Source: an uncultured Nitrososphaerales archaeon (GTDB taxonomy: Archaea; Thermoproteota; Nitrososphaeria; Nitrososphaerales; Nitrososphaeraceae). Taken from it: a stretch of DNA of 64,000 nucleotides. The stretch spans positions 96,001 to 160,000 of the forward strand of contig CAVPXM010000055.1 in assembly GCA_963709405.1 (NCBI GenBank). The letters are read 5' to 3'. Below are positions 1,577 to 55,986 of this stretch, in pieces. Below the pieces are notes generated by a model. It was not told the origin of the DNA. It saw only the letters and a program-made list of their open reading frames with translations, and ran no database searches. A program made the translations under genes and the position numbers. The first letter of the stretch is position 1. Each line of letters opens with the position of its first letter.

Positions 1577-3012
1577 ATGGTACGCGAGAATTCGGCGTAT
1601 TTGGCGCGTTTTCAACAAACGGCAATAATGTGATACCCTTTGTCATAGATTGCCTTAGAGCTTTACAACACCGGGGTCAAGAGGCTTGGGGTATCGCTAT
1701 TCCTCGTAGAATGCCGTTCAAGAGATTGGGTCTGGTCTCTGCATCAGGTCCTGAGTTTAAGAGTATTTCCAAAAAATATAGATCTGACGTTGCTATCGGC
1801 CATGTTAGATACTCTACCTTTGGTAAGAGTACCCTAAGTAATGCTCAACCTATTAAGGTGAAGGATCTCTGTATAGCTCATAATGGTACGATAGCAAATG
1901 TAGAAGAAATGTCTGGTATGGTTGGAGGATGTACCTTCACACCTCACACAATGAGCGACACCCTCGTTGCTGCGCAGAGACTCATAATGCACCTGGATAA
2001 TAATCATAGTATGAAGGATTCCATTTCCATTTTAAAGAGCGAGATGGTGGGCTCATTTTGTTTTATGTTTCTGACTGACGATGGTTCAGTTTATGCCGCA
2101 AGGGATCCTAGAGGTTTCAGACCATTGGTCCTTGGAACTCATGTAGAAACGAACACATTCATGGTTGCTTCAGAGTCGTGTGCTTTTTCAGCAGTTGGAG
2201 CGAACTTAATAAGAGATGTTGAACCAGGAGAAATTATCAAGCTAGATAGATATGGGATTAAAAGTGAACACTTTGCGGATGAATCTCATTCACATTGCGC
2301 TTTCGAATTTACGTATTTTGCCCACCCGACCAGCATAATGGAAAGGGTCAACGTATATCTGGCTAGGAAACGGATTGGACACTTACTTGCAAAAAAATAC
2401 CCGATTTTGGATGCAGATTTGGTAATCCCAGTACCTGATTCCGCTAGGCCAGCGGCTCTAGGATACTCAGAAGCACTTGGTTTACCAATCGAGGAGGGAC
2501 TATTAAAAAACAGATATAGTAAGAAGGGCTCTATGCGTAGTTTCATAGAGCCTTACGGCGAAACAAGAGTAGAAATCAATAAAGGAATTATACCAATAAG
2601 AGAACTTATTCATGGGAATAAGATCGTAGTGATTGACGATAGCATAGTTAGAGGTACCAGCTCGCATTCGATTGTAAAAATGTTACGTGGGGCTGGTGCT
2701 AAAGAAATTAGCGTGATAGTCACCTATCCACCCATTCGTTTTCCCTGCTACGCGGGCATTGATTTTCCATCGCAGGAAGAGCTCATCGCGTATCAAGAAA
2801 CCAAGAATGATAATACCATAGAAAAAATTGGATCAAATATATCGAAAATAATTGGCGCCGATTTTACAGGGTATAACGACACATCTAGCCTCGCACAGGC
2901 AATTGGAATTCCAGAAGATCAGCTTTGCTTTACTTGTTCTACCGGTGACTATTCTTCCCTAGGGATTAAGCCAATATTCCGAACTAGGAAGCAGATGAAA
3001 GGAGAAGAGTGA
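1577..3012 (+). CDS. purF: Amidophosphoribosyltransferase; likely true start ATG 1577 with a 1-bp deletion near 1592
   Basis: LQHRGQE, GHVRYST, HNG and VVIDDSIVRGT (PRPP) motifs; ATG GTA CGC GAG AAT T(G)C GGC would give MVRENCG with the catalytic Cys. Confidence 0.93.
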
Positions 3013-3111
3013 ATCTTTTCGATTCTGATCATGGTGCTACGATCAAAATAGGGATTTCGAGCTCACCTGTGAAAAGGCCTAACCTGTCCAAGATATCCGA
3101 ATTAAATCAAA

Positions 3112-27982: not shown

Positions 27983-28078
27983 GTTTGAATATTTCTAGCT
28001 TTTCTTACAACTGTTTATTCATACCTATACCTAGTATGCATGTATTAAGTTTCAATCCTATATTAGTCAAATTACAAC
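27983..28078 (-). CRISPR. Orphan mini-array remnant: one perfect 30-bp repeat (28049-28078), a 37-bp spacer (28012-28048) and a probable degenerate trailer repeat (27983-28011)
   Basis: 28049-28078 = GTTTCAATCCTATATTAGTCAAATTACAAC, identical to the consensus at 55395-55424. The upstream GTTTGAAT...TTACAAC keeps both repeat ends at spacer distance. Confidence 0.75.
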
Positions 28079-28102
28079 CTCAACTACTTTTCGGATAGGT
28101 TC
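28079..28102 (-). mobile_element. Isolated IS5-type left terminal inverted repeat fused to the CRISPR repeat
   Basis: CTCAACTACTTTTCGGATAGGTTC is identical to 55558-55581 and its reverse complement matches 54266-54289 at 22/24; followed by TAA (reverse complement of the TTA target). Confidence 0.88.
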
Positions 28103-28643
28103 TAAGTAACATTCTCCATTTGCCATCGCTGTGCGTACTGCGTTTCTAAGCTTGCTAAAAGATAGGTTTATCCGTTTGAACGACAGCTGTACACAAACGC
28201 CTTAGAACTTATTCTTAGATCGAGGGAGTACGGCATCGTGCAAGGAGCAAAGGCAAGATATGGGTGATACCCTCTTAAGCAACCAAGCACCAAGTCTGTA
28301 GAGAAATCTCAAGATATCACACATTGGATCCTAACGTACTAGACTAGTTGATACCAACACCTTGCAGGTCACCTTTCATGTGATTCCAGCAGGTGATATC
28401 TTTATCTTTTGTGTTACGACTACGCTATTGTAATTCCTAGTCGGGAGCTGTCCGATTCAGCTTTAGTATATGTCTCATATGGATTCGTAATTCTTACCTC
28501 GATAACTCGATTGCTTCGACAAGTAATGCAATCTATCAACTGTTCGCAACCCTACCTGCCTCTCAATCGGTTGCTGGGTCATCAAGTTTAACAGCTTACT
28601 GATATAATTTTTTTAATGTCGTGGATTGAATTTATTATTCAGG

Positions 28644-54005: not shown

Positions 54006-54246
54006 TGTTATTCCTTTGCGTCCTCTAGTCCAATGCAACAGTCCGCACTCTTGATACATTCCGGACATAGGCTCACAGAACAATTCGGCACTAATGACAG
54101 ACCGCATAGGGCACATCTCTTTTTAGCTGCAGTGTCGATCAAGTTGTTATACGCCACGAAAATATATGACGTCGACACTATATAATTCATAATTTTAAAC
54201 ACATATCATACTTGGAAATTCGAGGAAAAGCGATGCAATCTTCCGC

Positions 54247-54252
54247 AAAAAA
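54247..54252 (-). terminator. Oligo-T tract, probable original terminator of the epimerase gene, now displaced by the element
   Basis: With the element removed, the minus strand reads TAA-GTTAAAGAAG-TTTTTT right after the mce stop. Confidence 0.4.
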
Positions 54253-54265
54253 CTTCTTTAACTTA

Positions 54266-55253
54266 AAACCTATCCGAAAACTAGTTGAGTTTTATTGGGT
54301 TATAAGCAAACTGCATTTAATCAATAAAGCTAAGCTGTACTGCACTTTCTTCTGAGTTGTATTGATATCAGGTGCTACTGGAGTTGATTCATCGTACTCC
54401 ATACCTGATATTGTATGGGACAGACAGAATCATTGCATTGCGCTGCTACCGTCACCATCATCAATACATTGGAATAGAAAAAAGACTGGTCGTCCAAGAA
54501 TGAATGACAGGACGGCCATGAATGCTATTTTCTACGTCTTAAGAACTGGATGTCAATGGAAGGCTCTACCAAGAAGTCTTGGTGCTTCAAGTACAGTACA
54601 TGATAGATAGATTCCAAGAGTGGAGGAAAGAAGGTGTATTCAAACGCATGTGGATCGATGGATTGTCAGTATATGATTAAAATAATAGAATAGATTGGAA
54701 ATGGCAGGCTATGGATGGATGGTGTTATTACAAAAGCACCTCTTGGGGGAAAAAGTACAGGACCAAATCCCTACACACAGACAGACAGAAGTAAATCAGG
54801 TACAAAGCGTAGTATATTGGTGGTAGATGGTAAAGGAGTTCCTATTGGTGTATCCGTAGATGGTGCTAACAGACAGACATGATATGAAAATGAGTAAAAC
54901 AACACTTCAGAGTATAGTAGTAATCTATAGACCTGAACCAACAATCAGATCAAAGCAGCACATGTGCCTTGACAAGGGTTATGACTTTCCTGAAGTATAC
55001 GAATTACTAGAAGAAGAGTATGGTTATACAATTCACATCCGATTAAGAGGAGAAGAAAGTAGCAACATAAAAAGAGAAAAATTACCTAAATATAGAGCTA
55101 GACGATGGGTCGTTGAAAGGACTCATTCTTGGATGAACCGGTTTAGACGCTTGTTAATTAGATGGGAGAAAAAGGTAGAGAACCATACTGCGAAGTTACA
55201 TTTTGCTTGTGCTTGGATCACTTACAGAAAAGCAGGAATTTTCGGATAGGTTC
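54266..55253 (+). mobile_element. IS5-family insertion sequence (IS1031/IS427-like), 988 bp, defective
   Basis: Right IR TTTTCGGATAGGTTC at 55239-55253 pairs with the left IR; followed by TTA; transposase stop TAG lies inside the right IR. Confidence 0.9.
54362..55249 (+). pseudogene. IS5-family DDE transposase pseudogene
   Basis: GRPR...NAIFYVLRTGCQWKALP...STVHDR, LDKGYD and RWVVERTHSWMNRFRRL motifs; in-frame TAA at 54678 and several 4-bp duplications that shift the frame. Confidence 0.9.
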
Positions 55254-55557
55254 TTAGTCAAATTACAACGGTTCACCCTCCATATCTAACATTACTTCTT
55301 TCATGATGTTTCAATCCAGTATTAGTCAAATTATAACATTTTCTCGCATCTCATAGAGTTTAATGTTACTAATTGCGAATCCGGGAGCAACTAAGTTTCA
55401 ATCCTATATTAGTCAAATTACAACCATCAAGGCGAGATGTGTGAACACCGCCTAGTCATTGTTTCAATCCTATATTAGTCAAATTACGACACAACAACAT
55501 ACACACCTACAATCTCAGATGAAGAGTGTTTCAAATCTATATTAGTCAAATTACAAG
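55254..55557 (-). CRISPR. CRISPR array with 30-bp repeat (minus strand GTTGTAATTTGACTAATATAGGATTGAAAC), 4 full repeats + 1 half repeat, 4 spacers; no cas genes in window
   Basis: Repeats at 55254-55269 (half, cut at TTA), 55308-55337, 55395-55424, 55461-55490 and 55528-55557; unique spacers of 38, 57, 36 and 37 bp; the 3' ATTGAAAC end indicates minus-strand orientation. Confidence 0.93.
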
Positions 55558-55581
55558 CTCAACTACTTTTCGGATAGGTTC

Positions 55582-55986
55582 TTAATGGGCTCGTCTGCTA
55601 TCCTCACACAATTCTACTAAAACCCCGTTCATCGATTTAGGGTGAAAAAATGTGATTCTTCTATCATAAGAGCCCTTTCGGACATCTCCCAACATCCTAA
55701 TCCCATTGCTGCATGCCCTGGAAACGTCCTCCTGTATATTATCGGCAGTAATTGCGAGGTGATGGAGTCCCTCTCCATTTCGGTCAAGGAATTTATTGAT
55801 GGGACTATCTTTAGCAGTAGGTTCCATCAATTCTATTCTAGTATCTTCCAAATTCAGTATAGCAACTTTTACCTTCTCGTTCGGAACATCTTCTATGTGT
55901 ATCTGATTTATTCTAAACAACTTTTCATAGTTCTTCAAAGCTAGCTCTATATTATTAACTGCTATGGCAACATGATCAATCCTCAT
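55582..55986 (-). CDS. mce: Methylmalonyl-CoA epimerase
   Basis: IDHVAIAV, IELMEP, GEGLHHLA and FFHPK..NGVLVELCE motifs; clustered with the mutase. Confidence 0.94.
   Translation of the reverse strand: MRIDHVAIAVNNIELALKNYEKLFRINQIHIEDVPNEKVKVAILNLEDTRIELMEPTAKDSPINKFLDRNGEGLHHLAITADNIQEDVSRACSNGIRMLGDVRKGSYDRRITFFHPKSMNGVLVELCEDSRRAH

What the first reader, a model, noticed from the sequence alone, without database searches (positions are those of the whole stretch)
54263..55584. Transposon-packaged CRISPR mini-array: IS5 plus array enclosed by outer inverted repeats with a target duplication
Seen in sequence: TTA | IS left IR (54266-54289) - decayed IS5 transposase - inner right IR (55239-55253) - 5-repeat/4-spacer array (55254-55557) - inverted copy of the LEFT IR (55558-55581) | TTA. 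The outer end matches the left end over 24 bp (22/24), while the normal right end matches over only about 15 bp. The whole 1,316-bp unit is bracketed by TTA, and 3-bp TWA duplications are established for IS1031-type IS5 elements. There are no cas genes or leader nearby; the neighbours are housekeeping genes. Inference: the array was moved here as cargo by IS5 transposition, making this a mobile, cas-less spacer cassette. It differs from CASTs and TnpB/IscB elements because no guided effector is encoded.
Basis: partly seen in the sequence, partly recalled or inferred. Interest (0 to 1): 0.9.

Follow-up and report, generated by a model that had tools for sequence, protein, structure and literature searches.

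The report
IS5 transposon that carries a CRISPR mini-array
A broken IS5-type jumping gene in this soil archaeon has a short CRISPR array locked between its ends, and copies of that array have been scattered to about fourteen places in the genome, showing that a plain insertion sequence can move and multiply CRISPR arrays.

Summary
The 1,316-bp unit is TTA | left IR | decayed IS5 transposase | inner right IR | 16-nt repeat stub, 4 spacers and 4 repeats | inverted left IR | TTA. All six congeners searched have mce next to the small upstream gene with no insert, and the four aligned at base level carry a single TTA, the mce stop codon. Contigs from three soil studies bridge both outer junctions.

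The unit is not unique. The genome holds 14 mini-arrays of this repeat. Eleven end in the same repeat-to-IR junction, and nine of those are followed by TTA or TAA. Six carry the same IS-to-repeat-stub junction. Their seven "spacer" types are shared between copies and always occur in one order.

This is therefore a family of non-autonomous IS5-derived elements with a CRISPR-derived array as fixed cargo, not a one-off capture. An intact IS5 transposase exists in trans in a sister IS. The host has cas8b-cas7-cas5-cas3 beside a related repeat (23 of 30), a truncated cas6, and no cas1 or cas2.

Repeats and spacers diverge about as fast as the dead transposase, and no targets were found. The arrays look like neutral, decaying cargo. 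Function is unproven.

The parts
54263..54265 (.). Left copy of the 3-bp target duplication (TTA)
   Evidence: Congeners have a single TTA at this point.
54266..54289 (+). Left terminal inverted repeat of the IS (here called IS-A): AAACCTATCCGAAAACTAGTTGAG
54266..55253 (+). IS-A body, an IS5-family element whose transposase gene is decayed
   Evidence: Five other IS-A copies are 92-98% identical (gap-free columns), and all are broken.
54362..54610 (+). Transposase fragment 1 (DUF4096 domain)
   Evidence: PF13340, E = 2.7e-15.
54860..55249 (+). Transposase fragment 3 (DDE domain). Fragment 2 is 54715-54882 in another frame.
   Evidence: PF01609 and PF13586.
55239..55253 (+). Inner right terminal repeat of IS-A (TTTTCGGATAGGTTC)
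   Evidence: The same IS-to-repeat-stub junction occurs at 6 loci.
55254..55269 (-). Truncated CRISPR repeat (TTAGTCAAATTACAAC). The IS end sits at the TTA inside a repeat.
55270..55307 (-). Spacer type A
   Evidence: shared by 5 copies, 96% mean pairwise identity.
55308..55337 (-). Repeat, 3 mismatches to the commonest form. The canonical CRISPR orientation is the minus strand (GTTGTAATTTGACTAATATAGGATTGAAAC).
55338..55394 (-). 57-nt spacer: the head of type B fused to the tail of type F
   Evidence: by comparison with C21, C59 and C63 copy c.
55395..55424 (-). Repeat (the commonest form)
   Evidence: Weak Rfam CRISPR-DR2 match of 24 bits, below the 37-bit gathering score.
55425..55460 (-). 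Spacer type C: a GC-rich hairpin (stems CTAGGCGG / CCGCCTAG, here decayed) with a hypervariable loop
55461..55490 (-). Repeat, 1 mismatch
55491..55527 (-). Spacer type D
   Evidence: shared by 6 copies.
55528..55557 (-). Repeat, 3 mismatches. It directly abuts the outer IR.
55558..55581 (-). Outer terminal repeat: an inverted copy of an IS left end (GAACCTATCCGAAAAGTAGTTGAG on the minus strand)
   Evidence: It is fused to a repeat at the same base in 11 loci, and matches 23 of 24 positions of the left end of IS copies in congeners.
55582..55584 (.). Right copy of the target duplication (TTA), which is also the TAA stop codon of mce
55582..55986 (-). Methylmalonyl-CoA epimerase. Its ORF is left intact, and the array lies directly 3' of it in the same direction.
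   Evidence: TIGR03081, 138.5 bits against a cut-off of 114.95.
28012..28102 (-). Second, IS-less family member in the window: spacer A' (28012-28048), repeat (28049-28078), outer IR (28079-28102), followed by TAA at 28103-28105

Best explanation
The unit is a complete copy of a non-autonomous, IS5-family-derived transposon whose cargo is a segment of a type I-B CRISPR array.

Anatomy. On one side, an IS copy (IS-A) sits with its right end in the TTA inside a CRISPR repeat. On the other side, 24 nt of an IS left end is fused, pointing outward, to the first base of a repeat. The two left-type ends (the IS-A left IR and the outer inverted left IR) therefore bracket IS plus array.

Movement (inferred). 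A transposase supplied in trans, most plausibly by the sister element IS-B, moved the whole unit as one piece and duplicated a TWA target.

History (inferred). The ancestral element carried at least 7 spacers. It spread to at least 11-14 loci. Copies then lost repeat-spacer units, lost or truncated the IS, and picked up further insertions. In the window it landed exactly on the mce stop codon.

Present state. All IS-A transposases are dead. The repeats and spacers drift about as fast as that pseudogene. The genome has no cas1 or cas2 and only a truncated cas6. The arrays are therefore most likely neutral, decaying hitch-hikers rather than working guide cassettes.

Shown: the anatomy, the copy family, the empty site, and the junctions. 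Inferred: one-piece transposition, trans-mobilisation by IS-B, and neutrality.
For: - Clean insertion. All 6 congeners have mce within about 150 nt of the small upstream gene, against 1,379 nt here. The 4 aligned at base level have a single TTA.
- Junctions are real. Contigs from three DNA soil runs of three studies cross flank-to-left-IR and array-to-outer-IR-to-mce with 0-2 differences.
- Copy family. There are 37 repeats in 15 loci outside the cas-linked array.
- Shared junctions. The 24-nt outer IR abuts a repeat at the same base in 11 loci. The IS-A-end/TTA/repeat-stub junction is the same in 6 loci.
- Flanks. They are unrelated between loci, and 9 of 11 begin with TTA or TAA. I estimate about 6% by chance, hand-calculated from the 37% GC.
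- Spacers. There are 7 types, and all 14 arrays are colinear with one order, A|A'-B-F-E-C-D.
- Second composite. At C63:38134-39264 the outer IR, the array and IS-B are bracketed by TAA...TAA.
- IS-B behaviour. 8 of 8 copies carry matching TAA or TTA duplications. One copy has an intact 280-aa ORF that hits NF033580 (IS5 family) at 234.9 bits against a cut-off of 110.
- End similarity. The outer IR differs from the IS-B left IR at 1 of its first 19 bases.
- CRISPR origin of the repeat. It ends in ATTGAAAC. It matches 23 of 30 positions of the array beside cas8b-cas7-cas5-cas3 on C46, and 26 of 30 of a 9-repeat array in another genus.
- Neutral-looking drift. Mean pairwise identity is 0.92 for repeats and 0.89-0.98 for spacers A, A', D and E, against 0.92-0.98 for IS-A. 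There is no extra conservation of the 8-nt handle.
Against: - Only the window copy has both outer ends. The other 13 arrays are partial, so one-piece transposition is directly supported at one locus, plus the TAA-bracketed IS-B composite.
- The matching TTA is weak by itself, because the family nearly always targets TAA or TTA.
- Both termini of the window unit are left-type ends. Use of such a pair by this transposase is untested.
- Empty-site tests for three other copies could not fix the boundaries. Their flanks are other repeats or unconserved intergenic DNA.
- How the 24-nt IR became fused exactly at a repeat boundary is not explained by a simple insertion.
- The genome is a 91%-complete, 100-contig assembly. 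A native long array of this repeat, or cas1/cas2, could be unassembled.
- Neutrality rests on small samples. The hairpin spacer C shows conserved stems with a hypervariable loop, which a purely neutral model does not predict.
Confidence: 0.75

Rival explanations
1. Working guide cassette. The IS-borne arrays are transcribed, for example by read-through from mce in the window copy. They are then cut by a host Cas6 and loaded into the host type I-B effector. The transposon would thereby spread and amplify crRNA genes, for competition with other mobile elements, as a decoy, or for regulation. This is compatible with the transposon anatomy. It differs only in claiming a function.
For: - The repeat is a close relative of the host's cas-linked repeat: 23 of 30 positions, with the same handle except its last base.
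- cas8b, cas7, cas5 and cas3 are present.
- In the window the array lies directly 3' of mce and in the same direction.
- No spacer matches the host's own genome outside the arrays, so there is no self-targeting cost.
- Virus-borne and ICE-borne cas-less arrays are accepted precedents (passages read in PMC8616872 and PMC6563490).
- The hairpin spacer keeps its stems in 11 of 12 instances.
Against: - Repeats within single arrays differ at 1-3 positions and drift about as fast as the dead transposase. The handle is no better conserved.
- The only cas6 hit is a 146-aa C-terminal open frame.
- cas1 was not found in this genome or in the 6 congeners searched, and cas2 was not found in this genome.
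- There is no leader. IS sequence occupies its place.
- No protospacer was found in 30 relatives. Exact scans of the viral collection for spacers D, A, A' and C found none. An exact scan of the metagenome collection for C found none.
Confidence: 0.12
2. Two separate insertions at one TTA. IS-A first inserted at the mce stop codon. An independent array-bearing mini-element then inserted into the duplicated TTA next to the IS end. Under this view the array element is the mobile unit and merely tends to land beside IS ends.
For: - The array segment is itself flanked by TTA on both sides and by an exact 18-nt direct repeat.
- The IS-less copies C21 copy b and C63 copy d keep the same repeat-stub boundary, minus one base.
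- A different IS (IS-B) abuts the same kind of TTA in two loci.
Against: - The repeat-stub side has no inverted repeat for a DDE transposase to bind.
- The identical IS-A/TTA/stub junction at 6 loci with unrelated flanks would require six identical coincidences.
- The IS-less copies are equally explained by loss of the IS.
- IS-B at a TTA of a repeat is expected anyway, because every repeat contains that preferred target.
Confidence: 0.08
3. A former native array broken up without transposition. One long chromosomal array was invaded by ISs, and its pieces were dispersed by recombination between IS copies.
For: - The genome is extremely rich in ISs and rearranged. Several copies sit among other multi-copy elements.
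- Spacer order is conserved, as it would be in fragments of a single array.
Against: - Fragments of one array would carry different spacers. Here the same spacers recur at many loci: A in 5 copies, C in 11, D in 6.
- The window copy is a precise insertion with a target duplication into a conserved gene pair.
- 9 of 11 outer ends are followed by the IS family's target triplet.
Confidence: 0.03
4. Not CRISPR at all. The 30-nt repeats are subterminal transposase-binding repeats native to this IS lineage.
For: - The repeats sit only at one end of the element.
- They are always next to the IR.
- Their 'spacers' are fixed rather than private.
Against: - Related ISs in this genome (IS-B, 8 copies) and in congeners have ordinary interiors after the same IR and no such repeats.
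- The repeat is homologous to cas-adjacent arrays in this family of archaea and has the ATTGAAAC end.
- Similarity between the repeat and IS subterminal sequence is at chance level (empirical P = 0.18-0.87).
Confidence: 0.02

Closest known systems
Virus-borne mini-CRISPR arrays and solitary repeat units (Medvedeva et al. 2019 and Faure et al. 2019, seen only as cited in passages of PMC8616872)
   Same: Short cas-less arrays of 1-4 spacers carried by a mobile element. Their repeats closely resemble those of the host's own CRISPR-Cas system.
   Different: - The vehicle is a DDE insertion sequence, not a virus.
- The array is amplified to about 14 chromosomal loci in one genome.
- Spacers are fixed and shared between copies.
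- No target was found.
- There is no sign of ongoing acquisition, and cas1 was not found.
Stand-alone CRISPR arrays on integrated conjugative elements of Thaumarchaeota (PMC6563490, passages read)
   Same: Same archaeal lineage, type I-B-like repeats, and arrays without cas genes riding on mobile DNA.
   Different: Those are single large arrays (69 and 96 spacers) on large integrated elements. Their spacers are still being acquired in trans. Here the arrays are 1-4 spacers long, bounded by IS ends, and multi-copy.
Non-autonomous IS derivatives with passenger DNA (MITEs, 'transporter' ISs, composite transposons; recalled general knowledge, not read here)
   Same: Terminal inverted repeats, a short target duplication, no working transposase of its own, many copies, and likely mobilisation in trans by a related IS.
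   Different: - The passenger is a CRISPR array.
- Only one full IS plus a solitary 24-nt end bracket the cargo, so it is not a classical two-IS composite.
- At 1.3 kb it is larger than a typical MITE.
IS insertions that inactivate CRISPR-Cas (PMC10359306, search listing and start of abstract only)
   Same: ISs landing in CRISPR-Cas loci. Here the IS end sits in the TTA of a repeat.
   Different: That work concerns disruption of cas genes. Here the consequence is mobilisation and amplification of array DNA.
CRISPR-associated Tn7-like transposons (CASTs) and TnpB/IscB elements (recalled; CASTs are mentioned in passages of PMC6563490)
   Same: Transposon and CRISPR-type RNA genes in one mobile unit.
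   Different: No effector or guide-dependent targeting module is encoded. Insertion follows the ordinary TWA preference of the IS, not a guide.

Membership tests
IS5 family insertion sequence | DDE transposase of the IS5 type | tested here: met
   The IS-A fragments hit DUF4096 (56.8 bits; cut-off 34.3), DDE_Tnp_1 (33.9; 23) and DDE_Tnp_1_2 (36.1; 29.2). The sister IS-B has an intact ORF that hits NF033580, IS5 family, at 234.9 bits against a cut-off of 110.
IS5 family insertion sequence | Terminal inverted repeats and a short fixed target duplication | tested here: met
   The left and inner right ends share about 15 nt. TTA flanks both sides of the window unit. 8 of 8 IS-B copies are flanked by matching TAA or TTA.
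   No ISfinder library was available. The 3-bp TWA duplication is compatible, but that rule is recalled, not tested.
CRISPR array | Regularly spaced, near-identical direct repeats of 25-40 nt with spacers of similar size | tested here: met
   30-nt repeats with a 66-68 nt period and one 87-nt unit. There are 37 repeats genome-wide with at most 6 mismatches.
CRISPR array | Repeat homologous to repeats of cas-adjacent arrays | tested here: met
   23 of 30 positions match the array next to cas8b-cas7-cas5-cas3 on C46. 26 of 30 match a 9-repeat array in another genus. The repeat has the ATTGAAAC 3' end. The Rfam CRISPR-DR2 hit is only 24 bits, below the 37-bit gathering score.
CRISPR array | Leader sequence and adjacent cas genes, including adaptation genes | tested here: not met
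   A 24-nt IS end lies where the leader would be. The neighbours are mce, methylmalonyl-CoA mutase, aRF1 and a CBS-HTH protein. No Cas1 or Cas2 hit was found in the genome.
CRISPR array | Spacers of foreign origin, private to the array and acquired in polar order | tested here: inconclusive
   Spacers are shared between copies and colinear. No protospacer was found.
CRISPR array | Transcription and processing into crRNA | not testable with these tools
   Only assembled contigs of one oligo-dT soil RNA run were available. They cannot show transcription.
Non-autonomous transposon (MITE-like element) | No functional transposase, terminal inverted repeats, target duplication, multiple copies, related autonomous partner | tested here: met
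   6 of 6 IS-A copies are broken. The outer ends match at 22 of 24 positions. TTA is duplicated. There are 14 loci. IS-B has an intact ORF. Actual mobilisation in trans was not tested.
Classical composite transposon | Cargo flanked by two complete IS copies | tested here: not met
   Only one IS is present. The other side is a solitary 24-nt end fused to a repeat.

The most novel reading that the evidence does not exclude
The outer 24-nt 'IR' began as part of a CRISPR spacer that the ancestral array had acquired from the terminus of this very IS. A normal 37-nt spacer would consist of about 13 nt of flank or circle junction plus 24 nt of IS end. This would explain why IS homology stops exactly at a repeat boundary and is shorter than a spacer. 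The transposase then recognised this immune memory as a genuine transposon end. It paired that end with the IS copy that had landed in a downstream repeat, and so turned the array into a transposon that multiplied through the genome. Under this reading, a defence record against a transposon became the handle by which the transposon mobilised the defence locus. Some copies may still feed the host's type I-B effector.
Probability: 0.25. Interest if true: 0.85.

Novelty: new variant of a known kind. Interest (0 to 1): 0.65.

Why it matters
- Cas-less CRISPR arrays are known on viruses, plasmids and conjugative elements. Six full-text searches turned up no case of an array bounded by the ends of a simple DDE insertion sequence and amplified to many chromosomal sites.
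- It gives a concrete, checkable route by which orphan and mini-arrays can arise, spread within a genome and, potentially, move between replicons.
- It warns that scattered short arrays with shared spacers can be transposon cargo rather than independent immune loci. This affects spacer-based host-virus linkage and CRISPR typing.
- The exact fusion of an IS end to a repeat boundary raises a testable idea: a spacer taken from a transposon end can be used by the transposase as an end.
- The insertion sits on the stop codon of a carbon-fixation-pathway gene without breaking it. This makes a natural read-through test case for array expression.

Tried and rejected
**Dead ends and negative results**

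1. Empty-site tests for other copies. C21 copy b, C63 copy b, the second window copy and the IS-B composite were tested. Their flanks are other multi-copy elements or unconserved intergenic DNA, so the boundaries could not be fixed. This is no evidence either way.
2. Protospacer hunts, all negative.
   - Own genome outside the arrays, no match of 20 nt or more.
   - 30 relatives, with the window array as query.
   - Exact scans of viral contigs with spacers D, A, A' and the hairpin pattern.
   - Metagenome contigs with the hairpin pattern.
   - These scans find exact matches only. Spacers B, E and F were not scanned.
3. IR-to-repeat junction 27-mer: 0 hits in genome contigs and 0 in metagenome contigs. 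The tool says the window's own genome may be left out.
4. 26-mer of the repeat: 1 hit in genome contigs, a 2-repeat orphan in a congener.
5. Homology between the CRISPR repeat and the IS subterminal sequence, considered as an origin for the junction. It is at chance level (P = 0.18, 0.87 and 0.87) and was rejected.
6. The idea that C21 copy a and C63 copy d are two halves of one element split by rearrangement, since both have ACT flanks. Rejected, because C63 copy d has its own repeat-stub boundary.
7. Spacers of the cas-linked array and of relatives' arrays against this genome. 25 spacers gave only 15-19-nt matches, so there is no evidence of IS-targeting spacers.
8. The hairpin motif occurs nowhere in the genome outside the arrays. 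All 11 hits are in arrays, so it is not a dispersed palindromic element.
9. Rfam search of 54100-55700: only the sub-threshold CRISPR-DR2 hit.
10. Expression. One RNA run was laid, but only as contigs from an oligo-dT library. It cannot show transcription. No contig joining across the insertion (an empty allele) was seen in the 4 runs laid. That is not evidence of absence.
11. Literature. Six searches found no IS-borne dispersed arrays. The supplements of PMC6563490, which list IS elements and arrays, could bear on this.
Full report
**Observation**

- TTA lies at 54263-54265.
- A 24-nt left IR lies at 54266-54289.
- About 1 kb follows, carrying three out-of-frame pieces of an IS5-type transposase: DUF4096 in 54362-54610 and the DDE domains in 54860-55249.
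- A 15-nt right end lies at 55239-55253.
- Then comes TTAGTCAAATTACAAC, which is the last 16 nt of a CRISPR repeat.
- Four spacers of 38, 57, 36 and 37 nt alternate with four 30-nt repeats, up to 55557.
- A 24-nt sequence at 55558-55581 is the reverse complement of the left IR at 22 of 24 positions.
- TTA lies at 55582-55584.

Shuffled windows gave no match to either the IR or the repeat. The right-hand TTA is the stop codon of methylmalonyl-CoA epimerase. The other neighbours are methylmalonyl-CoA mutase, aRF1 and a CBS-HTH protein.

**Is it an insertion, and is the assembly sound?**

All six same-genus genomes found with the left flank have mce next to the small upstream gene. The gap is about 80-150 nt, against 1,379 nt in the window. 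I aligned four of the six at base level (L002, L003, L004, L006; L005 and L007 were extracted but not aligned). All four read ..TTAATGGG.., with a single TTA where the window has TTA + 1,316 bp + TTA.

Contigs from three DNA soil metagenomes of three different studies cross both outer junctions: flank into the left IR, and last repeat through the outer IR into mce. They show 0-2 differences. One of those runs may be the source of the assembly. No contig with the empty allele was seen in the four runs laid.

**The unit is one of a family**

The 30-nt repeat occurs 37 times with at most 6 mismatches, in 15 loci on ten contigs. That is 14 arrays of 1-4 repeats plus one solitary repeat. No hit lies within 1 kb of a contig end.

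- In 11 of the 14 arrays, the last repeat is followed at the same base by the same 24-nt IR. In 9 of those 11 the next three bases are TTA or TAA, which I estimate at about 6% by chance from base composition.
- In 6 arrays, the other side shows the same junction: IS-A right end, TTA, 13-nt repeat stub.
- Sequence shared between loci stops at the element borders.
- A second member, with one spacer, one repeat and the IR but no IS, lies in the same window at 28012-28102.

**The spacers are cargo, not private memory**

Only seven spacer types occur (A, A', B, C, D, E, F). Each is shared by 2-11 copies. All 14 arrays fit one order, A|A'-B-F-E-C-D-repeat-IR, with different units missing. That is the pattern of one ancestral array of at least seven spacers, copied and then eroded by repeat-to-repeat deletions. 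The window copy carries A, a B/F fusion, C and D.

**The insertion sequences**

Two relatives exist in the genome.

- IS-A is the array-linked type. There are 6 copies, 92-98% identical to one another in gap-free columns, and all have broken reading frames.
- IS-B is about 941 bp long and about 81% identical to IS-A. There are 8 full-length copies, and each is flanked by a matching TAA (7 copies) or TTA (1 copy).
- One IS-B copy has an intact 280-aa ORF that scores 234.9 bits on the NCBIfam IS5-family model, against a cut-off of 110.
- The outer IR of the arrays differs from the IS-B left end at 1 of its first 19 bases. It matches 23 of 24 positions of the left ends of ordinary ISs in three congeners, whose interiors carry no repeats.
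- At C63:38134-39264, an IS-B copy sits at the same kind of TTA in a repeat stub. There the whole block of outer IR, array and IS-B is bracketed by TAA...TAA. A sister of this arrangement lies on C59.

Every repeat contains the family's preferred TTA. Independent hits by IS-A and IS-B at 'the same' position are therefore expected.

**CRISPR identity and host machinery**

Read on the minus strand, the repeat is GTTGTAATTTGACTAATATAGGATTGAAAC.

- Contig C46 carries a 5-repeat array with four private spacers. Its repeat matches 23 of 30 positions and ends in ATTGAAAG. It is followed by cas8b, cas7, cas5 and cas3.
- The only cas6 hit is a 146-aa C-terminal frame just upstream. An odd GC-rich stretch precedes it.
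- Cas1 and Cas2 models found nothing in this 91%-complete assembly. Cas1 was also not found in the six congeners, although it was found in 4 more distant relatives.
- In the CRISPR orientation, the IS end occupies the place of the leader.
- In the window, the array lies directly downstream of mce and in the same direction.

**Function**

- Repeats have a mean pairwise identity of 0.92. Spacers A, A', D and E range from 0.89 to 0.98. These are no better conserved than the dead IS-A (0.92-0.98).
- Changes are spread over the repeat, including the handle.
- No protospacer was found in any search made. Most of those scans find exact matches only.

I therefore read the arrays as neutral, decaying cargo. 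A working-cassette role keeps about one chance in eight.

**What remains unexplained**

1. **Spacer C.**
   - It is a GC-rich hairpin.
   - Its stems are kept in 11 of 12 instances.
   - Its 13-nt loop differs at roughly half its positions between copies whose IS-A parts are 95-96% identical.
   - One array carries two different C units in tandem, so part of the variation may be paralogy: several spacers taken from variants of one target.
   - Hypermutation of the loop is not excluded.
2. **The IR-to-repeat fusion.**
   - The IS end points outward, so the array lies 'inside' the IS and a simple insertion cannot produce the junction.
   - One possibility is a deletion that happened to end at a repeat boundary.
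   - A more interesting one is that the 24 nt are the remainder of a spacer once acquired from the IS terminus and later used by the transposase as an end. I rate this at about 0.25.

**Comparison and novelty**

Cas-less arrays on viruses and on thaumarchaeal conjugative elements are described (passages read in PMC8616872 and PMC6563490). IS insertions that disable cas genes are also known (PMC10359306, listing and start of abstract only). Six searches found no report of an array bounded by IS ends and multiplied within a genome. Supplements were not available.

- The junction 27-mer was absent from the species-representative genome collection and from the JGI metagenome contigs.
- The repeat itself occurred in only one other genome, as a 2-repeat orphan.

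I class the finding as a new variant of a known kind: mobile-element-borne mini-arrays, and IS derivatives with cargo.

**Verdict**

Confidence is 0.75 that this is an IS5-derived, trans-mobilised transposon family carrying a CRISPR-derived array. Interest is 0.65.

Noticed in passing
window 28012-28105: A second family member lies in the same window. It consists of spacer A', one perfect repeat, the 24-nt outer IR and a TAA flank, with no IS. It sits in a 1.3-kb non-coding stretch that is not conserved in congeners.
   Followed up: partly
G000 contig C46:1-7570 (L046): This is a type I-B effector locus: a 5-repeat array, then cas8b, cas7, cas5 and cas3. There is only a C-terminal cas6 frame, preceded by a strikingly GC-rich stretch (about 400-980) in a 37%-GC genome. 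No cas1, cas2 or cas4 follows cas3. The GC-rich stretch may be an insertion or an assembly chimera.
   Followed up: partly
12 instances in 11 arrays, e.g. window 55425-55460 and C30:63786-63888: The hairpin 'spacer' C has invariant stems (CTAGGCGG / CCGCCTAG) and invariant flanks. Its roughly 13-nt loop varies far more than the rest of the element. The motif occurs nowhere else in the genome.
   Followed up: partly
L015 / L060 (congener G006, contig 190, about 2928-3022): An orphan two-repeat array in a congener. Its repeat differs from the IS-borne repeat at one base. It has one private spacer and no IS end beside it. It may be a relic of the native array type from which the cargo came.
   Followed up: no
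G000 C21:283514-283540 (L033): At the IS-less copy C21b, the left border reads TTGACTAAATAGTCAA, a near-palindrome. A TAA lies just outside it that matches the TAA beyond the outer IR. This may be a footprint of IS excision from a former composite.
   Followed up: no
G000 IS-B copies (e.g. C25:61391-62340, C86:1357-2301, C58:12584-13527): Some IS-B copies have two overlapping ORFs (136 and 231 aa), while one has a single 280-aa ORF with a lysine/A-run near its start. This may be a programmed frameshift rather than decay.
   Followed up: no
L033:2546-3301 and L033:502-970 (G000 C21): Other high-copy elements occur here. One is a roughly 750-bp segment with at least 8 copies at 97-99% identity; the other has 4-5 copies at 91-94%. 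The genome is unusually rich in ISs for this family of archaea.
   Followed up: no
G000 C13:43231-43260: A solitary copy of the repeat (2 mismatches), with neither spacer partners nor an IS end beside it.
   Followed up: no
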